This document shows, one piece after another, positions 45,008-52,667 of a stretch of DNA of 64,000 nt (positions within the stretch are counted from its first letter, which is position 1; the number at the start of each line of letters is the position of its first letter). Position numbers and translations under genes: made by a program. The stretch spans positions 4,400 to 68,399 of the forward strand of contig JAHITE010000097.1 in assembly GCA_018817585.1 (NCBI GenBank), given 5' to 3'. The notes under the pieces were generated by a model. That model worked only from the letters and a program-made list of their open reading frames with translations. It was not told where the DNA came from and searched no databases. The DNA is from Candidatus Omnitrophota bacterium (GTDB taxonomy: Bacteria; Omnitrophota; Gorgyraeia; B26-G9).

Positions 45008-45412
45008 ATGATTTATTGTTCAGCTGTTAAACAAAAAAAAGGATTTACTTTAGTTGAAATAGTGGTGGTATTATTGATTCTTGGCGGAGTTATTGCCGGC
45101 TTTTTAAGTGTAAATACAGCTAGTTTTTCATTATTAGAACAGATTAGCAGTTCAGTGATCGCGGTGAATGATGCTCGCTCTGTTATTGAAAATATGCGTA
45201 ATATTGATCCGTTCAACGCCGCAAATCTGACATCATTATATCCTGATGGAGCAAATGTCGTTGGTTTTGACAATTTGGTACAGGAATCAGTCAAAGTAAA
45301 TTATCTGAATACCGGGTCTGATCCGATTCAAGTCACAGTTAGCGTTAGTTGGCAAGGAAGAGCGAACCAGGCTTTTACCGAGCAGTTGACAACGCTTTTA
45401 ACAGCGCGTTAA
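45008..45412 (+). CDS. prepilin-type N-terminal cleavage/methylation domain protein (pseudopilin)
   Basis: KKG|FTLVEIVVVLLILGG leader. Confidence 0.75.
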   Translation: MIYCSAVKQKKGFTLVEIVVVLLILGGVIAGFLSVNTASFSLLEQISSSVIAVNDARSVIENMRNIDPFNAANLTSLYPDGANVVGFDNLVQESVKVNYLNTGSDPIQVTVSVSWQGRANQAFTEQLTTLLTAR

Positions 45413-45431
45413 TCAAGGAAAAACGAAAAAT

Positions 45432-46253
45432 ATGCGTAAAATTTTTTCTAAAAAAGGGATGTCTTTATTTGAAATATTAATTGTAAGCGTTATCGCGGTT
45501 TTTATTATGTTTACACTTTTGGCATTATTGTCTTCATCACGCAGTACCTGGGTGATATCCGATATTAAATCAGACATATATATTAATGCCCGTAAAGCGA
45601 TGAATGAGATGTTTGATGATTTAATTGAAGCTTCAAGCGGTAATACCGAAGACTTTATATTTATTGATCCGATCAATGGGCAGTTTAGCCAAGGGCTTTG
45701 GCTTGCATCAGCAAGAGGTGATTCCGGAGTTGGCGGTGAGGACGGAAGCGCGAATAATAATTACCTGCATTTAGATGTTAATAATGTAGTTAGCTGGAGA
45801 GCGCTTATTGTTTATTGTCCATATGAGAATTCTTCAGGGATAAAGCAGTTACGCCGGTACGTAGATTTTGGTTCGAGTATTAATTTTTATAGTCAGCTAA
45901 ATATTTTTCCTATGACTTTCTTATCGGTTACAACAGAAAAATTAAATTTTATTGCTGCTGACGGGGTAACAGTTATATCGATTGATCGTGCGGGTGGCCG
46001 AGTTTTAGCAAATAATATCAGCACAGAAGATTTTAATAATAACAATGTTCTAGATTCTAATGAAAATGATGGGCAGGTTAACGCTCCGGTTGATAATGAA
46101 GACGGAATTCTGAATTATGGGGTGAATTTTACTAAAAATGTGGGTAGTATTGATATTATTTTATTTTTAGCTAAAAAAGCCGCAAGGCTACAAGCTCAAG
46201 GGCTTGAATTTTCAACTACTTTAAGCAATAAAATTAAATTTAGGCAGCCTTAA
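45432..46253 (+). CDS. pilin-like protein with atypical prepilin leader
   Basis: KKGMSLFEILIVSVIAVFIMF N-terminal hydrophobic helix with Glu at +5-like position. Sits between two pilin genes. Confidence 0.55.
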   Translation: MRKIFSKKGMSLFEILIVSVIAVFIMFTLLALLSSSRSTWVISDIKSDIYINARKAMNEMFDDLIEASSGNTEDFIFIDPINGQFSQGLWLASARGDSGVGGEDGSANNNYLHLDVNNVVSWRALIVYCPYENSSGIKQLRRYVDFGSSINFYSQLNIFPMTFLSVTTEKLNFIAADGVTVISIDRAGGRVLANNISTEDFNNNNVLDSNENDGQVNAPVDNEDGILNYGVNFTKNVGSIDIILFLAKKAARLQAQGLEFSTTLSNKIKFRQP

Positions 46254-46273
46254 AAATTTTTAGGGGGGGGTAT

Positions 46274-47335
46274 ATGTTAAAGAATAAAAAAGGGTTTTTG
46301 TTAATAGTTGTTTATCTTGTTATCGCAGTGCTTTTGACATTGTTGGGTGTTTTTGTGTTTAAAAATATTTGGGAGGCAAAATCAGGCGCGGAATATAAAC
46401 AAAGAATGTCGGCTTTTTATTGCGCGGAAGCAGCTTTGGATAAGGGGATTGAGCGATTACCATCTAATTTAACCGGAGAAGCCAATGTCGCGCTGAATAC
46501 TGTTGGAGGTTCGCAGCAGGGTGAATATACTTATACAATATCAGTTATTGATGCAGGAAAAAGTTGGCGGGTAGAAAGCTGGGGGTTTGTGCCTAATCAG
46601 GCACAGGCAGCAGCAACTGCGCATCTTGAGGCTTATATTTCGAAAAAAGATTTGCCTTCCTCTTTTTGGGACAATGCGATCTATACAGCAGGAAATGTTA
46701 GGGTAAATGGGGTGGCTTATGATCTTAACGGTGATATTACTTATGGAGGTTCTTTGGTGCCAGGAACATTGGATCCAGCAAATTTTGTAGGAACAGCAAC
46801 GAATGATCCTAGTGTTTCTCCATTGGTCAAGCTAGATTATGAATCCCTAAGAACTGTTGCGGCAGGCCAGATTAAGGCTGATGGCAGTGATAATGTGTAT
46901 ACTTTTATGGAAGTATCCGCAGGCAATCCGCCGTTTCCTACATCTTTCTGGTTTGATAATTCTGATTCTGATCCAACAAAATGGGTGCCGAATGTTGTTT
47001 ATGTGGAAACAGACCTGGTTTTAAACGGTAGTATTGGAACAATTGGAGGGTTTTTTCTGGTTGTGGGTGATGTTACAACAGATCCCTTAGCTACATCAGA
47101 GACAATTATTAATGGTAATGGGGAAATAGATGGTTGTGTTTATAGTACAGGACAGTTCCGGGTTAATGGTGGAGGTACTGGTTTGAATGTTCTGGGAGGC
47201 GTTTGGTCGGGCACTGATGGAGTACGTTTAAACGGCAGTATTGAAATAGGTTATCATCAGCCTTATATGAATGCTATTCGGGATGTGATTCAGCCTGGTT
47301 CTACTGTCCAGCTTATTTCTTGGCGCAAGCTTTGA
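46274..47335 (+). CDS. PilX-like minor pilin / pilus assembly protein
   Basis: KKGFLLIVVYLVIAVLL leader. Gly/Thr/Asn-rich beta-rich C-terminal region. Confidence 0.55.
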   Translation: MLKNKKGFLLIVVYLVIAVLLTLLGVFVFKNIWEAKSGAEYKQRMSAFYCAEAALDKGIERLPSNLTGEANVALNTVGGSQQGEYTYTISVIDAGKSWRVESWGFVPNQAQAAATAHLEAYISKKDLPSSFWDNAIYTAGNVRVNGVAYDLNGDITYGGSLVPGTLDPANFVGTATNDPSVSPLVKLDYESLRTVAAGQIKADGSDNVYTFMEVSAGNPPFPTSFWFDNSDSDPTKWVPNVVYVETDLVLNGSIGTIGGFFLVVGDVTTDPLATSETIINGNGEIDGCVYSTGQFRVNGGGTGLNVLGGVWSGTDGVRLNGSIEIGYHQPYMNAIRDVIQPGSTVQLISWRKL

Positions 47336-47500
47336 TAAGCGGGAAAAGGAATTAAAAGGGGAGTCAGATTATATCTATGAAGTTTCCCAGATAGTTGTTT
47401 CTTCATTGTAATCCTATCTAAAAATATTCGGTTTTTTCAGTTTTAAAAAATAAACTATTGAAAAAAACTAAATACATGGTATATTTGTTTATAGTAAATA

Positions 47501-47534
47501 AAGTTAATTTAAGTTAATTTAAGTTAATTTAAGT
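47501..47534. repeat. 10-bp tandem repeat (aagttaattt)x3 plus a partial unit, 15 nt upstream of the HTH-EIIA gene
   Basis: Three perfect units at 47501, 47511 and 47521, then aagtaataaa. Confidence 0.8.
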
Positions 47535-47548
47535 AATAAAAGGGTTAA

Positions 47549-48265
47549 ATGATGTCTAAAAATAATATAATGACAACAAGAGAACTAGCTGAATATATTA
47601 AGCTTAATGAAAAAACTGTTATTAAAATGGCGCAAAGCGGTAAAATTCCGGGAATAAAAATCGGCAATCAGTGGCGTTTTCATCTAAGATCAATAGATAA
47701 TTATTTGCAGGGGCAGATAGTCCAGTCGCCTAATGAAGATTTAGACTTGGTTATCCAGACAGAAAACGATATTATTCCTTTATCAAGATTGATCAATCCT
47801 GGGTTAATTGATTTGAATATGGATGCGGATAAGCCGTACGCGGTTTTGGCAAGACTTGTAAAAATAGCTAAAGATAATAATCTTACTGAAAATGAACAGC
47901 TGCTGTTAAAAGAATTAAGAGATCGGGAAAAAATGATGAGTACGGGGATTGGTAATGGGATCGCGATTCCGCATCCACGTAATCCTTCAGAAAAGCTGTT
48001 TAGAAAGCCGAATATCATTTTAGCGCGGACAATTAAGCCAATTGATTTTAATGCTCCGGATGGTAAAGCAGTCTCGATTTTTTTTATGATCTGCGCGCCA
48101 AATGAATTCGCGCATTTGCGGATTCTGGCTAAAATCGCTAAGTTTTTAAATAAAAAGGAAATCGGAAACAAACTGTTGGCGGCTGAAGACTCAGTAAAAT
48201 TAGTTCAGGTTTTTCTGGAATTTGAACGTATGAATATGTTTTTAAATTTTAAAGCTAAATTATGA
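47549..48265 (+). CDS. HTH (excisionase/MerR-type) DNA-binding domain fused to a PTS EIIA type-2 (PtsN/EIIA-Ntr-like) domain
   Basis: N-terminal TTRELAEYIKLNEKTVIKMAQSGKIPGIKIGNQWRF. EIIA-2 phosphorylation-site motif GIAIPHPR. Confidence 0.75.
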   Translation: MMSKNNIMTTRELAEYIKLNEKTVIKMAQSGKIPGIKIGNQWRFHLRSIDNYLQGQIVQSPNEDLDLVIQTENDIIPLSRLINPGLIDLNMDADKPYAVLARLVKIAKDNNLTENEQLLLKELRDREKMMSTGIGNGIAIPHPRNPSEKLFRKPNIILARTIKPIDFNAPDGKAVSIFFMICAPNEFAHLRILAKIAKFLNKKEIGNKLLAAEDSVKLVQVFLEFERMNMFLNFKAKL

Positions 48266-48588
48266 GAAATTTTAAAATATTTTTAATTTTAATAATCTGT
48301 GTTATTGCTGTTCAATTATCAATGGACGGATTGTCATTTGCTTCGGATCAAGCCGAGGCAGCGGAGCGTTACTGCCAGTTAAGGGAATGCGAAAATTATA
48401 AAGCAGTTGGTCCATGCGCGAGAGTACAAAAAATAGAATTAAGCAGCAGGTTAATGGTAATCGCTTGTTTTGTTTACCGCAGATTACCTGTTTTTGTTTT
48501 TGCGACAAATAAAAAATGTTCGATCTTTGTTTCTGAGCTTTTCAATAATTCTCCGCCTTTTTTATATTCATTGCCTGAATTTTCTTAA
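48262..48588 (+). CDS. hypothetical small Cys-rich protein with signal peptide
   Basis: N-terminal hydrophobic leader. No recognisable family. Coding status is uncertain. Confidence 0.3.
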   Translation: MRNFKIFLILIICVIAVQLSMDGLSFASDQAEAAERYCQLRECENYKAVGPCARVQKIELSSRLMVIACFVYRRLPVFVFATNKKCSIFVSELFNNSPPFLYSLPEFS

Positions 48589-48631
48589 CATTCTTAAAAT
48601 ATAATATAAATATTAAAAACGAGGTGCAATA

Positions 48632-48979
48632 ATGGTTGTGGTTATATATCATAATAATATGGATTATTTAAAATCACTGGTCAATATAGTCGCGGAGCAT
48701 GGGTTTAAAGCAAAACAAATTACGGAAAAAAAGAATATAGGGACGGAAATTGTCGGGCCGAGTTCATCGGTTACTTATTTACATGGCAAAGCAGTGCCTT
48801 CTTACAATAAAGCTTTAGTTGTGCATGTAGCATCAGAAAAAGAGGCAATATCTTTTCTTAATATCATAGAAAACGATAAGGTTTTGAATCTCTGTAATAT
48901 GCAGGACAAGGGATTTGTTTCAGTTTTGCCATTGTGTTCATTCGAAGGTTTCAATAGTTGGGTTGCAAATAAAGGATAG
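48632..48979 (+). CDS. hypothetical small protein, possibly PII-like/ACT-like beta-alpha-beta fold
   Basis: 115 aa. The alternating pattern (VVVIYHNNMDYLKSLVNIV..GFKA...ALVVHVASEKEAISFLNII) suggests a ferredoxin-like regulatory fold. This is inference only. Confidence 0.4.
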   Translation: MVVVIYHNNMDYLKSLVNIVAEHGFKAKQITEKKNIGTEIVGPSSSVTYLHGKAVPSYNKALVVHVASEKEAISFLNIIENDKVLNLCNMQDKGFVSVLPLCSFEGFNSWVANKG

Positions 48980-48983
48980 GACG

Positions 48984-49907
48984 ATGAGTGAATTAAAGGA
49001 AGGTATCAAAGGGAAACTGATTATAAAACAATTGCCGGTTTGTGATAAATACCAAGCAATTAAATTCCTGCTTAATGAAGTGTTTGCTTCGGAAAAAGCA
49101 AAAATTGGCGGTTTCGCTGAAGAAGAAATTTTTGAAAGTATTGTTTCTCGTGAAAATATGAGCACAACAGGCATTGGTTTTAGCTTGGCTATTCCTCATT
49201 CCCGGATAGAAGGCTGGGGGAGATTTGTTTTAGCGGTGGGCCTGAGTTATGAAGGTATTGATTTTAATAGTATGGATAAAAGTCAGGCTAAAATAATATG
49301 TTTGATGATTTCTTCAGCAGATGAGCCTTATGTTATATTACAGACAACTGCCGCTATTATTAAATTTCTGGAAAAGCAAAAAGGAGCGGAAGCGTTTTTA
49401 AAAACATACCCTGTTTTTAATCGGGCAAAAGAGAAGTTATCAGCGCTTTGTTTAGATGTTAATGAACAGATATTCGCGAAAGATGTTATCCGTCCGGTGC
49501 AGGCATGTGTAAATCTCAATGATTCAATTGAAATAGCTACCCGGTTGATGCATTTAAAGCATTTTGATGTTTTACCGGTTGTGGATGATGAGTATAATTT
49601 TTGCGGTCAGTTAACTTGCTTGGATATTTTTCAGTACGGAATGCCGAATTTCTTTAATAACTTAAAGACGATATCTTTTGTTAGACATATTGACCCATTT
49701 GAAAAATATTTTAGAATTCATCGTAATCTTAAAGCAAGTAATTTTTACAAACACACTGAACCGATTAGTCAGGATAAAACTTTATTGGAAATTATCTTTG
49801 AGTTAAGTATCAAACAAAGATCAAAGTTATTCGTAACAAATGAACGCAATAAATTAATCGGGGTTATTGATCGGTTTACCATAATAGATAAGATCTTAGT
49901 ATTTTAA
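48984..49907 (+). CDS. PTS EIIA type-2 domain fused to a CBS domain pair
   Basis: EIIA-2 His motif LAIPHSR. Two C-terminal CBS repeats. Start re-set to ATG 48984 (RBS aaagga), because the track start at 48915 overlaps the upstream gene. Confidence 0.7.
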   Translation: MSELKEGIKGKLIIKQLPVCDKYQAIKFLLNEVFASEKAKIGGFAEEEIFESIVSRENMSTTGIGFSLAIPHSRIEGWGRFVLAVGLSYEGIDFNSMDKSQAKIICLMISSADEPYVILQTTAAIIKFLEKQKGAEAFLKTYPVFNRAKEKLSALCLDVNEQIFAKDVIRPVQACVNLNDSIEIATRLMHLKHFDVLPVVDDEYNFCGQLTCLDIFQYGMPNFFNNLKTISFVRHIDPFEKYFRIHRNLKASNFYKHTEPISQDKTLLEIIFELSIKQRSKLFVTNERNKLIGVIDRFTIIDKILVF

Positions 49908-49920
49908 ATTAGGAGATACA

Positions 49921-51219
49921 ATGAAAGCATTACTTTCAGTTATTATTTTTGTGGGAGCTTATATTGCCATTGCTTCCGATAAAGTCAGTAAAACAATAGT
50001 CGCTGTAATCGGCGCTTGTTTGGTTATTATGCTGCATCTGGTGTCATTTGAGGAGGCAATGCATGCTGTTGATTTAAATGTAATTTTTTTACTTGTGGGA
50101 ATGATGACTTGCGTCTATATTTTGTCTAAAACCGGATTTTTTGAATGGGCGGCGATTAGTGTAGCTAAATACTCTCGCGGCAATCCTTTTCTGATAATGT
50201 GTTTGCTTCTGCTGGTAACCGCAGTCTTATCTGCTTTTTTTGATAATGTGACTACAATTATTCTTCTAGTGCCCTTAACTATTCTTATTGCGGAACTTCT
50301 TGAGATTAATCCGATACCGTTTATTATTCTTGAGACATTGGCTTCAAATATTGGAGGAACAGCGACTCTGATCGGGGATCCGCCGAATATTATTATTGGC
50401 TCAGCAGCTAAGTTATCGTTTTCAGATTTTTTAGTGTACCTTTCTCCTGTGGTAATTATGATTTTCGCGGTTTTTCTTTTTACTGTTTTTTTATTATTTC
50501 GTAATGTTTTTACAGTCCAGGAGTCAATGAAAAAACGGGTGATTAATTCTATTCCGAATTTGGCTATTGTTGATAAAAAGAATATGATAAAAGCGCTTTT
50601 AATAATGGGTCTTATTTTTGTCGGGTTTTTTTTCCATGCAAAGCTTGATATAGAGCCTGGAATTGTCGCGCTTGGCGGCAGTATGCTGATGATGCTTTTT
50701 TGTAAATCAGACAGTGAAGAGACTTTGATGAAAGTTGAATGGGGTGTTATTTTCTTTTTTATCGGAATGTTTATAATGATCGCGGCTTTGGACGCAAATG
50801 GGGTTATTGAAAGAGCGGGACAGCTGATATTAAATGCTTCTGGACAAAACCTATTCCATGTATGTCTTATTGTGCTTTTTGGGTCAGCTTTATTTTCAGC
50901 GATATTGGACAATATTCCGTTTGTGATCACGATGGTTCCCCTAGTTAAAAATTTTATTGAGCATTTCGCGGTCTCTTTGGGTACTCAAAATATCGAACAA
51001 ATAAGCCAGCCTTTATGGTGGGCTTTGGCTCTGGGCGCTTGTTTGGGGGGCAATATGACAATTATTGGCGCTTCAGCGAATGTGGTTATGGTCAGGATCG
51101 CGGCGCGTAATAAATATAAGGTAACTTTCGGAAAATTCCTAAAATATGGAGTACCATTTACGATACAATCATTGATAATAAGCGCTTTATATCTTTGGCT
51201 TAGATATTTTAGAGTTTGA
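49921..51219 (+). CDS. ArsB/NhaD-superfamily (SLC13-like) ion/anion permease
   Basis: 432 aa with about 11-12 TM segments. Internal repeat with GDPPN-like re-entrant loop motifs (LIGDPPNIIIG). Confidence 0.7.
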   Translation: MKALLSVIIFVGAYIAIASDKVSKTIVAVIGACLVIMLHLVSFEEAMHAVDLNVIFLLVGMMTCVYILSKTGFFEWAAISVAKYSRGNPFLIMCLLLLVTAVLSAFFDNVTTIILLVPLTILIAELLEINPIPFIILETLASNIGGTATLIGDPPNIIIGSAAKLSFSDFLVYLSPVVIMIFAVFLFTVFLLFRNVFTVQESMKKRVINSIPNLAIVDKKNMIKALLIMGLIFVGFFFHAKLDIEPGIVALGGSMLMMLFCKSDSEETLMKVEWGVIFFFIGMFIMIAALDANGVIERAGQLILNASGQNLFHVCLIVLFGSALFSAILDNIPFVITMVPLVKNFIEHFAVSLGTQNIEQISQPLWWALALGACLGGNMTIIGASANVVMVRIAARNKYKVTFGKFLKYGVPFTIQSLIISALYLWLRYFRV

Positions 51220-51225
51220 TTGAAA

Positions 51226-51790
51226 AAATAGCGTATAGCCCTTCGACTTTGCTCAGGGTAAACGATTAGCGATTAGAAAAAGCAAGAAGCAAAGAGCGCT
51301 TGGCTAATAGCTGATCCTCCTTTGCCAAGGCTTCGGAGGACAGGTGGCTGATAGTAAAAGCAGAAAAGCAAAAGCGATTAAAAAAGGTCACTGGAAAGCT
51401 AAAAGCTATAAACTATAAAGGACAGGAATAATTATTTAGGCGGGTTTGAAGCCTGATTTTGATAGGACTGGCAAAATCAGAGATTCATCCTCGGAGTCCC
51501 GCAGGATGCGGGACGAGAATGAGCCAAAATGATTGATTCCGGACCGCCATTGATTAGCTGGCTACAAGATGATAAGTAAATTTTACGCTGACACAAAGTT
51601 TGTAAAGTTCATAAAGTAGCTAGATTATATGGTAGGGGCCGTGCTTGTCCCGGCCCGTAATAATATGGATTATTAAATCGGGCAAATGATTGATAAGCGG
51701 GCGCAGGCAAGTTGCGCTTCTATGGTTAATTAATCGCAATACGTGATACTCACTACGCAATACTGAACCACAGGTTTCCCTTAATTGTGT
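51226..51790. repeat. long non-coding block homologous to 9335-9760
   Basis: Shares tagcgtatagc...gattagcgattagaaaaagca and cgcaatacg-N13-ctacgcaatac with the 9.3 kb block. It embeds inverted-repeat copy E. Confidence 0.5.
51632..51725. repeat. short inverted-repeat element, copy E
   Basis: 5' arm gtaggggccgtgcttgtcccggcccgtaataat is about 85% identical to copy A. The 3' arm gcgggcgcaggcaagttgcgc matches the 3' arm of copy C. Confidence 0.6.
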
Positions 51791-52043
51791 TGATTGTTTT
51801 AATGCAGTATTATGTGAGAAAATATCATAAATATTACTTGAAAAGCTAATATTATTTACATTCTCACCCCTTAGAGCTTATTTTGAAAGATCATGTTTAA
51901 TTTATTTGCCTATCTTCTTGCTCTATAATTTGTTATATTTGTATGGGGTATTGGATAATTATTATTAATTATATTTTATTTGGTTTTGTATTATAATAAT
52001 CAATAAATATTGTTTTCTAAATTAAATATTAACAAAGGAGGAA

Positions 52044-52667
52044 GTGATGAGTTTGCGGGAATATTTTGAGAATACAAAAGGTATGGGGATCTTAGCTACT
52101 TCAGATAGTAAAGGAATTATTGATACAGCTGTTTATGGTAGACCGCATTTTATTGATGAGAATAATTGTATATTTTTAATGGCTGATAAACTTTCTCATA
52201 AAAATATTCAGGAAAATCCAAAAGCTTCATATGCTTTTATTCAGAAAGACGGTCATTATACTGGTAAGCGTTTGTATTTAACAAAAACTAAAGAATTGGA
52301 TGATTCTGCTTTGGTTGATGAGCTTAGAAGAAAAAAACATGGATGTCAATGTGATGAAGATAAAAAGACTTTCGTGGTTTATTTTCAAGTTGATTCAGTC
52401 AGGCCTTTAGTGGGTGAGGGCTCTACGGCTTGTTCAGATAAGGCAGATACTTGTCCTACCTGTATGCAGGAAACAGGCTCAACAGGACATATGTGTGTTC
52501 CAGCTAATAAAAAAGACGAGAAATGTAATTGGTGCGGAGCAATGATTCCAACTGAACGCCATTTATGCAATGAAAAAGTAAAAGAACTGGCATATATATG
52601 CAATAGTTGCGGCAGGACAGCTGTTAAAGCGGAGCATTTATGTCAGCCTAAAAAGATTGAAAAATAA
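52044..52667 (+). CDS. PNPOx-like (FMN-binding split-barrel) domain fused to a C-terminal triple C-x2-C-x8-H-x-C repeat domain
   Basis: The N-terminus resembles pyridoxamine 5'-phosphate oxidase-family proteins. C-terminal repeats: CPTCMQETGSTGHMC, CNWCGAMIPTERHLC, CNSCGRTAVKAEHLC. Strong AGGAGG RBS. Confidence 0.7.
   Translation: MMSLREYFENTKGMGILATSDSKGIIDTAVYGRPHFIDENNCIFLMADKLSHKNIQENPKASYAFIQKDGHYTGKRLYLTKTKELDDSALVDELRRKKHGCQCDEDKKTFVVYFQVDSVRPLVGEGSTACSDKADTCPTCMQETGSTGHMCVPANKKDEKCNWCGAMIPTERHLCNEKVKELAYICNSCGRTAVKAEHLCQPKKIEK

What the first reader, a model, noticed from the sequence alone, without database searches (positions are those of the whole stretch)
47501..51219. Regulatory cluster: HTH-EIIA(Ntr), PII-like protein, EIIA(Ntr)-CBS and an ArsB/NhaD permease, preceded by a helical-turn tandem repeat
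The cluster holds two different proteins with PTS EIIA type-2 (PtsN-like) domains, both with the phosphorylatable His motif (GIAIPHPR, LAIPHSR). One is fused to an excisionase-type HTH DNA-binding domain. The other is fused to a CBS pair, which is an adenosyl-ligand sensor. They flank a small PII-like candidate and precede a 12-TM ArsB/NhaD-type permease. EIIA-Ntr proteins are known to regulate ion transporters such as K+ uptake. PII-like proteins (SbtB, for example) gate adjacent transporters. Here the pieces look assembled into one module, with a DNA-binding EIIA that could autoregulate through the three exact 10-bp repeats (aagttaattt) placed 15 nt upstream of its gene. No EI, HPr or sugar-specific PTS components are in the window.
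Basis: partly seen in the sequence, partly recalled or inferred. Interest (0 to 1): 0.6.

Follow-up and report, generated by a model that had tools for sequence, protein, structure and literature searches.

The report
Self-regulated ion-transporter operon with EIIA switches
A five-gene operon of an uncultured Omnitrophota bacterium joins a membrane ion permease to two PtsN-like EIIA proteins, a previously unnamed PII-like protein and a small membrane protein, and its DNA-binding EIIA protein most likely shuts the operon off by sitting on three 10-bp repeats; the same undescribed kit recurs beside other ion transporters in dozens of uncultured bacteria.

Summary
The exact 10-bp repeat, the HTH_17-EIIA protein, the EIIA-CBS protein and the CitMHS/ArsB-type permease are at the stated coordinates.

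The 115-aa protein ("X") has no Pfam or NCBIfam match. It is predicted to adopt a PII-type fold. It is linked by profile comparison to small PII-like proteins that do hit Pfam P-II. Elsewhere it is fused to EIIA in about 270-aa proteins.

The gene set recurs with unrelated flanking genes. The same regulators also sit next to Na+/H+ exchangers, TrkA and CrcB, and one exchanger carries a fused EIIA domain.

The repeat is a conserved operator-like array with unit TRRGTTAAWW and 3-5 copies at 10-bp phase, lying between the promoter and the ribosome-binding site. It reaches at least 16/18 core matches in 31 of 46 regions upstream of HTH-EIIA genes. None of 958,208 background positions reaches that score.

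Best reading: a self-repressed ion-transport operon whose permease is gated by EIIA-CBS and X. This is a new variant of PtsN/PII-type transporter control. Binding, phosphorylation and substrate are all untested.

The parts
47458..47485 (+). Sigma-70-type promoter: TTGAAA, 16 nt, TATATT, with TG upstream (extended -10)
   Evidence: Consensus scan, 10/12 matches with TG. The TGGTATATTT block is invariant in five relatives. The inferred transcription start is near 47492, which places the repeats at about +9 to +42.
47501..47534 (+). Operator-like array: AAGTTAATTT x3 exact plus a partial fourth unit (family consensus TRRGTTAAWW at 10-bp phase)
   Evidence: TRF. The core is conserved and the spacers are free in relatives. 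At least 16/18 core matches in 31/46 upstream regions versus 0/958,208 background positions. Consensus from 110 units in 33 loci. This is the only exact site in the window.
47549..48265 (+). HTH_17 (excisionase/BldC-type winged helix) fused to a PtsN-like EIIA domain; proposed autorepressor
   Evidence: Pfam and NCBIfam. Best solved relatives are PtsN structures for the EIIA part and RdfS/BldC for the HTH part, both marginal. H142 and H189 are invariant in the seven aligned relatives. 356 relatives found among GTDB species genomes.
48262..48588 (+). Small 108-aa protein with an N-terminal signal/anchor, a second hydrophobic segment and a C-terminal ..LFNNSPP.. motif (SP-ORF); function unknown
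   Evidence: ATGA overlap with the HTH-EIIA stop codon. The frame is kept open in relatives, with indels in multiples of three. Third-position substitutions exceed first and second. An ORF of 103-119 aa with the same N-terminus and an xSPP C-terminal motif precedes X in 13 of 21 distinct loci. Hydropathy.
48632..48979 (+). X: 115-aa member of an unnamed PII-like family (motifs MHN, YDKA, DKGFIC..PF)
   Evidence: 42 cluster representatives with E<=1e-3 in an exhaustive HMMER search. AF2 models. Foldseek matches to GlnK/GlnZ/CutA/PstA. hhalign to the PII-like partners of Na+/H+ exchangers, 94.7%, and those hit PF00543. Fused to EIIA elsewhere.
48984..49907 (+). EIIA(PtsN-like)-CBS protein; proposed gate or sensor for the permease
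   Evidence: Pfam and NCBIfam. PDB best hits are PtsN and EIIA-Mtl. It lies directly upstream of the IT permease in 13 surveyed loci. The His of PHxR is invariant in 14/14 and the linker GMPxFFxxLxTISFVRHIDPFEKYF is conserved.
49921..51219 (+). Ion-transporter-superfamily permease (CitMHS/ArsB/NhaD-like); substrate unknown
   Evidence: PF03600 283 bits. Below all NCBIfam equivalog cutoffs, for example MamN 180/500 and ArsB 123/457. PDB matches are ArsB and VcINDY. 72% identical to the L052 orthologue.

Best explanation
This is one autoregulated ion-transport operon.

Transcription. A single strong promoter (47458-47485) drives five co-oriented, tightly packed genes. The first product, HTH_17-EIIA, most likely binds head-to-tail as 3-4 protomers to the TRRGTTAAWW units. 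These units are spaced one helical turn apart, between the -10 element and the ribosome-binding site. Binding there would repress the operon. The EIIA domain of the same protein would decide whether it binds.

Transport. The last product is an IT-superfamily permease, probably a cation/proton or small-anion carrier. It is likely gated at the protein level by the cytoplasmic EIIA-CBS protein, together with the PII-like protein X, which physically partners EIIA domains. The small membrane-anchored ORF is an accessory of X.

Signals. The likely inputs are the phosphorylation state of the invariant EIIA histidine, as for PtsN, and adenosine-type ligands sensed by the CBS pair and by X.

Shown here: gene content, domain identities, conservation of the operator array, synteny and domain fusions.

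Inferred: DNA binding, the sign of regulation, protein-protein contacts, the ligands, phosphorylation and the substrate.
For: One module. The five-gene order is kept in L013/L050 and L052, which do not contain the window's flanking genes, at 47% (HTH-EIIA), 39% (X), 57% (EIIA-CBS) and 72% (permease) identity. HTH-EIIA + EIIA-CBS + permease occurs in 13 surveyed loci.

Fusions. X-EIIA fusions of about 270 aa. A Na_H_Exchanger-EIIA fusion in L065.

Regulators travel between transporters. HTH-EIIA with X-EIIA or EIIA sits next to Na_H_Exchanger plus a PII-like protein in at least 12 loci, next to TrkA in L023, and next to CrcB+DUF190 in L018.

Operator. The array is conserved in core and phase with variable spacers. 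It is present in 31/46 regions upstream of HTH-EIIA genes versus 0 of 958,208 other positions. It is absent upstream of the three modules that lack HTH-EIIA. The recognition helix differs (NEKTVIKMAQ versus NERTVLKLVS) in the clade that has GTAA-type 10-bp-phased units instead.

Precedent for the binding mode. BldC, a MerR/excisionase-like winged HTH, oligomerises head-to-tail on 2-4 direct repeats (PMC5859096).

Precedent for the logic. PtsN binds TrkA, KdpD and the CPA1 antiporter YcgO (PMC11808508; PMC13104625). PII proteins GlnK and SbtB plug AmtB and SbtA, and CBS pairs gate transporters with nucleotides (PMC10710835).

EIIA identity. The phosphorylatable-His motif is invariant in HTH-EIIA and EIIA-CBS. 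Both EIIA domains match PtsN structures best.
Against: There is no experiment of any kind.

No EI, HPr or NPr gene is in the window or in about 1 Mb of related loci. The rest of these genomes could not be searched, so phosphorylation is unproven.

EIIA-CBS has Gln where PtsN has its second conserved His.

X does not hit Pfam P-II, and its direct profile comparison with canonical PII proteins is insignificant (probability 3%). The AF2 model is only moderately confident (pLDDT 76.5) and the Foldseek E-values are 5e-4 to 5e-3 with TM about 0.5.

X and the small ORF are absent from most EIIA-CBS/permease loci, so they are not essential to the core mechanism.

Fifteen of 46 upstream regions score below 16/18. 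Several of these are degenerate arrays or are cut by contig ends.

The permease substrate is unknown.
Confidence: 0.6

Rival explanations
1. Same module, but the EIIA domains are never phosphorylated. These bacteria would lack a PTS relay, and the EIIA fold would serve only as a ligand-binding or protein-binding regulatory domain, as in the cytoplasmic domains of some transporters. The real signals would then be nucleotides sensed by CBS and X.
For: No EI or HPr in the window or in any fetched locus. EIIA-CBS lacks the second catalytic-site His of PtsN. Both EIIA proteins are far below the PtsN equivalog cutoffs (79.6 and 43.4 versus 138.7 bits). EIIA is fused directly to an exchanger in L065. 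The 2026 review describes PTS-Ntr as widely distributed in proteobacteria and does not mention the terms DNA-binding, fusion or CBS.
Against: The His of the G-x-A-x-P-H-x-R motif is invariant in all three EIIA families, which are otherwise 30-50% identical. In HTH-EIIA the second His is invariant too. A related clade of HTH-EIIA genes sits directly upstream of PEP carboxykinase, which hints at a PEP-linked signal.
Confidence: 0.3
2. The repeats are not the operator of HTH-EIIA. They could act in the 5' UTR RNA, be bound by another factor, or be promoter-like AT-rich elements. HTH-EIIA could also be an activator rather than a repressor.
For: The array lies downstream of the predicted -10 element and so is transcribed. 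The units contain -10-like TAAnnT hexamers, and in some loci the array overlaps the -10 element itself. No binding data exist.
Against: The array is found only upstream of HTH-EIIA genes: 31/46 versus 0/958,208 positions. It is missing where HTH-EIIA is missing. Exact one-turn phasing of direct repeats matches the documented binding mode of BldC-type winged HTH proteins. No Rfam family matches in the window. The recognition helix and the repeat core change together between clades. The position at or downstream of the -10 element fits repression.
Confidence: 0.12
3. An arsenite-resistance operon, or an organic-anion (citrate/DASS-type) or sugar-PTS uptake operon, in which the EIIA proteins are ordinary sugar-PTS components.
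For: Pfam ArsB, CitMHS and Na_sulph_symp hits. The best PDB hit is an arsenical pump, followed by VcINDY. The top NCBIfam hit for both EIIA domains is the fruA EIIA domain model.
Against: No ArsR, ArsC or ArsA, and no EIIB, EIIC or PRD domains, in the operon. The ArsB models score 109-123 bits against cutoffs of 415-760, and fruA scores 93.5 and 54.9 against a cutoff of 103.5. The same regulators flank Na+/H+ exchangers, TrkA and CrcB, pointing to inorganic-ion homeostasis.
Confidence: 0.1
4. Fortuitous adjacency of unrelated genes, with a chance tandem repeat.
For: Close relatives share wide synteny, so their agreement alone proves little.
Against: The gene order is conserved with different flanking genes. 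Domain fusions link the components. Start and stop codons overlap or nearly abut. Repeat statistics.
Confidence: 0.02

Closest known systems
PtsN (EIIA-Ntr) control of K+ transport in E. coli: TrkA, KdpD and the CPA1 antiporter YcgO (PMC11808508; PMC13104625)
   Same: A PtsN-like EIIA domain with the phosphorylatable His is genetically tied to monovalent-ion transporters, and the logic is protein-protein gating. In sister loci the partner is a CPA-type exchanger, as with YcgO.
   Different: These are not PtsN orthologues; they score below the equivalog cutoffs. The EIIA domain is fused to a DNA-binding HTH, to a CBS pair, to a PII-like domain or to the exchanger itself. The genes are encoded in cis with the target. 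No PTS relay genes were seen nearby. The lineage is Omnitrophota and neighbouring phyla, not proteobacteria.
PII-family transporter plugs: GlnK-AmtB and SbtB-SbtA (PMC10710835)
   Same: A small protein of about 110 aa with a PII-type fold and a long flexible loop is encoded next to a transporter.
   Different: X lacks a Pfam P-II hit and the GDGKIF B-loop signature. Its demonstrated evolutionary partner is EIIA, by fusion, rather than the transporter. It is dispensable in many loci.
BldC, and excisionase/RDF winged-HTH proteins such as Xis and RdfS (PMC5859096)
   Same: An HTH_17/excisionase-type domain. The target is an array of 3-5 direct repeats at about one helical turn, matching head-to-tail oligomerisation on a variable number of repeats.
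   Different: BldC is a 68-residue protein with no sensor domain, whereas here a C-terminal EIIA sensor is attached. The BldC subfamily model scores 17 bits against a cutoff of 77. The unit is 10 bp (TRRGTTAAWW), not the 9-bp AATTNNNN(C).
PRD-type PTS-controlled transcription regulators carrying EIIA domains (MtlR, LicR, ManR); this comparison is from my own knowledge
   Same: A DNA-binding domain and an EIIA(Mtl/Fru/Ntr-class) domain in one polypeptide, which allows PTS-state control of transcription.
   Different: No PRD and no EIIB-like domain. The protein has about 235 aa instead of about 650-700. It has a different HTH class, and its targets are ion transporters rather than sugar operons.
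c-di-AMP receptor set controlling K+/osmolyte transport: CBS proteins (OpuCA, DarB/CbpB) and PII-like DarA/PstA (PMC7900238; PMC10710835)
   Same: A CBS pair and a PII-like protein associated with cation transport. Weak hits of EIIA-CBS to CbpB and of X to PstA (4rww).
   Different: The hits are far below cutoffs. No cyclase or phosphodiesterase was seen in the loci. The ligand is unknown.

Membership tests
PTS EIIA type 2 (PF00359) | Domain match above the Pfam gathering score | tested here: met
   112.2 bits (HTH-EIIA) and 60.1 bits (EIIA-CBS) against a cutoff of 27.
PTS EIIA type 2 (PF00359) | Phosphorylatable His in the G-x-A-x-P-H motif (His73 of E. coli PtsN) | tested here: met
   GIAIPHPR and LAIPHSR. 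The His is invariant in 7/7 HTH-EIIA and 14/14 EIIA-CBS sequences.
PTS EIIA type 2 (PF00359) | Actual phosphoryl transfer from HPr/NPr | not testable with these tools
   No EI or HPr in the window or in the fetched loci. The rest of the genome could not be searched.
PtsN (EIIA-Ntr) orthologue | Score above the equivalog cutoff (TIGR01419 138.7; NF008145 221) | tested here: not met
   79.6 and 61.3 bits for HTH-EIIA; 43.4 and 39.9 bits for EIIA-CBS. They are PtsN-like but not PtsN.
PtsN (EIIA-Ntr) orthologue | Second conserved His (His120 of E. coli PtsN) | tested here: inconclusive
   Present and invariant in HTH-EIIA (H189). Replaced by an invariant Gln in EIIA-CBS.
PII / GlnB superfamily | Pfam P-II (PF00543) sequence match | tested here: not met
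   No hit for X at E<=0.01. Direct hhalign to four canonical PII proteins gives probability 3%. The link is indirect only: X family to the PII-like partners of Na+/H+ exchangers at 94.7%, and two of four of those pass PF00543 at 28.8 and 25.4 bits against a cutoff of 25.
PII / GlnB superfamily | Double beta-alpha-beta ferredoxin-like fold with a long T-loop between beta2 and beta3 | tested here: met
   AF2 model: E2-6, H10-22, short strand, disordered 43-47, E60-65, H69-81, E95-99 (pLDDT 76.5). Foldseek matches GlnK, GlnZ, GlnB, CutA and PstA with probability 0.8-1.0 and TM about 0.45-0.5. This is a prediction, not a structure.
PII / GlnB superfamily | B-loop nucleotide-binding signature (T-G-x-x-G-D-G-K-I-F) and trimer formation | tested here: not met
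   X has L-N-x-x-D-K-G-F-I-C at the equivalent place. Trimerisation is not testable here.
CBS pair (Bateman module) | Two tandem CBS motifs | tested here: inconclusive
   One CBS at 37.5 bits against a cutoff of 24. The second is seen only in the family alignment (L-x-G-V-I-D-R-F-x-I-I-D-K-I-L) and in NCBIfam CBS-pair alignments that are below cutoff.
Excisionase/MerR-like HTH_17; BldC family | HTH_17 / excisionase domain match | tested here: met
   PF12728 48.5 bits against 27. TIGR01764 40.9 bits against 28.8.
Excisionase/MerR-like HTH_17; BldC family | BldC subfamily model | tested here: not met
   NF033787 17 bits against 77. PDB BldC entries 6ama and 6amk give E 0.14-0.2.
Excisionase/MerR-like HTH_17; BldC family | Binding to phased direct repeats | not testable with these tools
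   Only comparative evidence is available: co-occurrence and phasing.
ArsB / NhaD / CitMHS ion-transporter superfamily | Family match above the gathering score | tested here: met
   PF03600 283.1 bits against 31.9. PF02040 88.5 bits against 22.2.
ArsB arsenite pump; MamN; NhaB; DASS | Equivalog or subfamily cutoff | tested here: not met
   MamN 179.7/500, ArsB 122.9/457, DASS 121.5/198.6, NhaB 35.4/640.
PRD-type PTS regulators (MtlR/LicR) | PRD domains between the HTH and the EIIA | tested here: not met
   Only HTH_17 and PTS_EIIA_2 are found in the 238-aa protein.
Anti-phage defence systems (MADS and others) | PADLOC system components | tested here: not met
   Only the generic HTH matches mad1 (28.6 bits). 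The other four proteins have no hit.

The most novel reading that the evidence does not exclude
HTH_17-EIIA proteins are a widespread, undescribed class of one-component transcription factors, with at least 356 relatives among GTDB species genomes. They would read the PTS/PEP state, or a ligand, through an EIIA domain and polymerise head-to-tail on 10-bp-phased direct repeats. In Omnitrophota and their neighbours they would head a modular kit (EIIA-CBS, a new PII-like family X that docks on EIIA, and a small SPP-motif membrane protein) that can be attached to different ion transporters: IT permease, CPA exchanger, Trk, CrcB. In Binatota/delta-type bacteria the same factor would control PEP carboxykinase. 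That would merge PTS-Ntr-type, PII-type and CBS-type signalling in one operon.
Probability: 0.35. Interest if true: 0.8.

Novelty: new variant of a known kind. Interest (0 to 1): 0.64.

Why it matters
Control of ion transporters by PtsN and by PII proteins is known mainly from proteobacteria and cyanobacteria, as trans-acting and often puzzling networks. Here the same domain types are hard-wired in cis, next to their presumed targets, in uncultured phyla. Their pairings are made explicit by gene fusions: HTH-EIIA, PII-like-EIIA, EIIA-CBS and exchanger-EIIA.

This gives three testable leads. The first is a predicted operator and its regulator, which could be tested with one EMSA. The second is an unnamed PII-like family with a defined partner domain. 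The third is a set of natural transporter-regulator pairs for asking how EIIA domains gate membrane carriers.

It also offers annotation for several hundred 'PTS sugar transporter subunit IIA' and 'hypothetical' genes that are probably neither sugar-related nor standalone.

Tried and rejected
- Rfam scan of the whole window: no family, so there is no known riboswitch or leader in the 5' UTR or in the stretch 48262-48632.
- The idea that 48262-48588 is non-coding: rejected. The frame is kept open in divergent AT-rich relatives, there is a third-position excess of substitutions, the start overlaps the preceding stop (ATGA), and the N- and C-terminal features are conserved.
- The search for related loci with the X alignment failed because no stretch was conserved enough.
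- The second homologue search used an alignment that still carried EIIA columns, so it mostly returned EIIA proteins. The third, domain-only search returned only 7 hits because of the word index.
- A profile search of X against PDB sequences gave nothing meaningful.
- PADLOC: no defence system.
- Literature searches for EIIA+Omnitrophota, PTS_EIIA_2+HTH_17, and EIIA/CBS/PII-like/antiporter combinations found no description of this architecture.
- An ars operon and a sugar-PTS reading were rejected on cutoffs and missing partner genes.
- EI/HPr search of the window and of all loci was negative. It used sequences from memory and cannot speak for the rest of the genomes.

Full report
**What is in the sequence**

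Window 47458-51219 carries five co-oriented ORFs behind a sigma-70-type promoter: TTGAAA, 16 nt, TATATT, with an upstream TG (47458-47485). Between the -10 element and the ribosome-binding site lies AAGTTAATTT x3.4 with no mismatch (47501-47534).

- Gene 1 (47549-48265) has HTH_17 (48.5 bits) and PTS_EIIA_2 (112 bits) domains. It passes the excisionase domain model.
- Gene 2 (48262-48588) encodes 108 aa. It starts with an ATGA overlap on the stop codon of gene 1.
- Gene 3 (48632-48979) encodes 115 aa and has no Pfam or NCBIfam match. I call it X below.
- Gene 4 is best read from ATG 48984 and encodes 307 aa, as called in relatives. It has PTS_EIIA_2 (60 bits) and one Pfam CBS domain (37.5 bits). 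A second CBS is visible in the family alignment.
- Gene 5 (49921-51219) is a CitMHS/ArsB-type member of the ion-transporter (IT) superfamily (283 bits). It scores below every NCBIfam equivalog cutoff.

Both EIIA domains match PtsN crystal structures best. Both carry the G-x-A-x-P-H-x-R histidine motif. No Rfam family is present. Homologues of the 115-aa protein are annotated as Candidatus Omnitrophica/Omnitrophota MAG proteins, which suggests that the window comes from an Omnitrophota bacterium.

**The small protein X is a remote PII-like protein**

A word-indexed search found only four close homologues. An exhaustive HMMER search of 1.84 billion cluster representatives found 42 with E<=1e-3. 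They define a family of about 105 aa with the motifs M-H-N, Y-D-K-A and D-K-G-F-I-C-x-x-P-F.

With a 40-sequence alignment, AlphaFold2 gives a beta-alpha-beta-(disordered loop 43-47)-beta-alpha-beta fold at pLDDT 76.5. Foldseek against the PDB places GlnK, GlnZ and GlnB among the best matches, with CutA and the c-di-AMP receptor PstA lower in the list. Probabilities are about 0.8-1.0, E-values 5e-4 to 5e-3, and TM about 0.45-0.5.

By sequence, X has no direct significant similarity to canonical PII. However, its profile aligns end to end (94.7%, E 6e-8) with the 105-113-aa proteins encoded after Na+/H+ exchangers in sister loci. Two of four of those pass the Pfam P-II threshold.

I therefore call X PII-like in fold and probably in descent. 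It is not a member of the PII family proper, because the B-loop signature is absent.

**The genes belong together**

Close relatives share tens of kilobases of synteny, which proves little on its own. The decisive loci are more distant.

- L013/L050 and L052 have the same five-gene order. Identities to the window are 47% (HTH-EIIA), 39% (X), 57% (EIIA-CBS) and 72% (permease). The fast-evolving small ORF has no detectable similarity.
- None of the window's flanking genes is found in any surveyed locus outside the close relatives L001/L002/L014, L005/L015 and L006/L007, apart from one TPR-repeat match in L022.
- A survey of 80 genome loci was seeded with the HTH-EIIA protein, which has 356 relatives among GTDB species genomes. 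HTH-EIIA is followed by EIIA-CBS and the IT permease in 13 loci. In most of these, X and the small ORF are absent. The core is therefore three genes, with X and the small ORF as an accessory pair.
- In at least 12 further loci, HTH-EIIA is followed by EIIA or by an X-EIIA fusion, then a CPA-type Na_H_Exchanger, then a PII-like protein.
- Other loci carry TrkA, CrcB+DUF190 or an ATP-synthase a-subunit downstream.

Domain fusions make the links explicit. X is fused to EIIA in about 42 proteins of about 270 aa. In L065 the exchanger itself ends in an EIIA domain.

The small ORF recurs before X in 13 of 21 distinct loci. It is always 103-119 aa, with a basic-hydrophobic N-terminus and a C-terminal [L/F/I]-x-[N/H]-S-P-P motif. 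It also shows a coding-type substitution pattern.

**The repeat is a conserved operator-like array**

The region upstream of the HTH-EIIA gene was compared in close relatives (L001, L005, L006) and in more distant loci (L013, L009, L010, and L017-L054). All have units with the core (A/G)GTTA(A/G) at exact 10-bp spacing. The spacers differ freely between loci. The array follows a TTGACA/TATAAT-like promoter.

Over 33 non-identical loci and 110 units the consensus is T-R-R-G-T-T-A-A-W-W. There are 3 copies in 23 loci, 4 in 9 and 5 in 1. The array ends 9-38 nt before the called start codon in all but one locus.

A triple core with at least 16/18 matches occurs in 31 of 46 upstream regions. It occurs at none of 958,208 other positions on either strand of the same loci. 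In the window, the exact double or triple motif occurs only here. Three modules that lack an HTH-EIIA gene also lack the array.

In the delta/Binataceae clade the units are GTAA-like, again at spacings of 10, 20 or 30 bp. There the recognition helix reads NERTVLKLVS instead of NEKTVIKMAQ, while the wing PGVKIGNQWRF is unchanged.

The HTH belongs to the excisionase/BldC class. BldC binds 2-4 direct repeats by head-to-tail oligomerisation (PMC5859096).

The array lies at or just downstream of the -10 element, at about +9 to +42 in the window. That position fits repression by occlusion or roadblock. DNA binding itself is inferred, not shown.

**How it most likely works**

- Step 1, inferred with strong comparative support: HTH-EIIA represses its own five-gene operon by cooperative binding to the array.
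- Step 2, inferred: the state of its EIIA domain releases or strengthens binding. That state would be phosphorylation of the invariant His142, or a bound partner or ligand.
- Step 3, inferred from conserved adjacency, from fusions and from precedent: EIIA-CBS docks on the permease and gates it. The precedents are PtsN binding TrkA, KdpD and the CPA1 antiporter YcgO (PMC11808508 and PMC13104625). The strongly conserved linker G-M-P-x-F-F-x-x-L-x-T-I-S-F-V-R-H-I-D-P-F-E-K-Y-F between the two CBS motifs is a candidate contact surface.
- Step 4, inferred: X binds the EIIA domain, as the natural X-EIIA fusions imply, and adds a nucleotide or metabolite input. PII proteins and CBS pairs do this for other transporters (PMC10710835).
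- Step 5, unknown: the role of the small SPP-motif membrane protein, and the substrate. The company kept by the regulators (Na+/H+ exchangers, Trk, CrcB) points to inorganic-ion or pH homeostasis. An NhaD-like cation/proton antiporter is my best guess.

**What weakens the model**

- No phosphodonor genes were seen, and I could not search the rest of these genomes.
- EIIA-CBS has Gln at the position of the second conserved His of PtsN.
- The PII assignment rests on a moderately confident model and on a two-step profile chain.
- Fifteen of 46 upstream regions score below the threshold. Some are degenerate arrays or are cut by contig ends.
- The covariation between recognition helix and operator rests on only two clades.

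**Comparison with known systems, and novelty**

In logic the module resembles PtsN-dependent control of K+ transporters and PII/CBS gating of carriers. In DNA recognition it resembles BldC/Xis-type regulators. It is not a member of any of those families:

- the PtsN equivalog cutoffs are missed;
- Pfam P-II is missed by X;
- the BldC subfamily model is missed;
- there are no PRD domains, so it is not an MtlR/LicR-type regulator;
- PADLOC finds no defence system.

Literature searches found no description of HTH_17-EIIA regulators, EIIA-CBS proteins or PII-like-EIIA fusions. The 2026 PTS-Ntr review does not contain the terms DNA-binding, fusion or CBS.

I rate it a new variant of a known kind. 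It is of moderate to high interest because it yields a concrete regulator-operator pair, an unnamed PII-like family with a defined partner, and a portable regulatory kit for ion transporters in uncultured phyla.

Noticed in passing
window 51220-52043 (remnant at 51778-51897): The 825-bp ORF-free gap after the permease holds a decayed copy of the last 40 codons (72% identity, with an in-frame stop) of the 2-thiouracil-desulfurase/DUF1722 gene. That gene is intact at this position in relative L001 (12761-13711).
   Followed up: partly
window 45008-47335: Three ORFs with no Pfam hit directly upstream of the operon have prepilin-like N-termini (KKGMSLFEILIV, KKGFLLIVV). They are present in L005 but absent from L001 and L006, so this block is an indel between close relatives.
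   Followed up: partly
window 52044-52667: A conserved 207-aa protein with a weak PNPOx-like N-terminal half (below cutoff) and a Cys-rich C-terminal half. Function unknown.
   Followed up: no
L064 7720-9489, L071 6415-8232, L083 7723-9543, L085 1394-3178, L089 7721-9490: In delta-proteobacterial and Binataceae MAGs, the HTH_17-EIIA relative (30-32% identity) is immediately followed by GTP-dependent PEP carboxykinase in 5 of 5 loci tested. GTAA-like units lie at 10-bp-multiple spacings upstream. This places a DNA-binding EIIA next to a PEP-forming enzyme.
   Followed up: partly
L065 7736-9994; L026 5034-6842: Na_H_Exchanger proteins with a C-terminal EIIA domain in a single polypeptide, encoded next to HTH-EIIA. 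The L065 case is confirmed by Pfam. The L026 case rests on a local phmmer match only.
   Followed up: partly
L018 7706-8451; L023 8594-9965; L044 2572-3423: HTH-EIIA genes with the same operator array are followed by CrcB + DUF190, by two TrkA proteins (after an X-EIIA fusion), or by an ATP-synthase a-subunit.
   Followed up: partly
window 48262-48588 and, for example, L011 6616-6945, L012 6616-6954, L029 1288-1605: A family of fast-evolving 103-119-aa proteins with a signal/anchor N-terminus and a C-terminal [LFI]-x-[NH]-S-P-P motif precedes the PII-like gene in 13 of 21 distinct loci. It has no match in Pfam.
   Followed up: partly
window 51595-51617: A 9-bp tandem repeat, AAAGTTCAT x2.6 (85% matches), inside the decayed intergenic region.
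   Followed up: no
window 60364-62834: A response regulator and histidine kinase pair. In relatives, the orthologous pair is followed by a porin and a PstS-like binding protein, giving a Pho-type cluster about 9 kb downstream. There is no evidence that it is linked to the operon.
   Followed up: no
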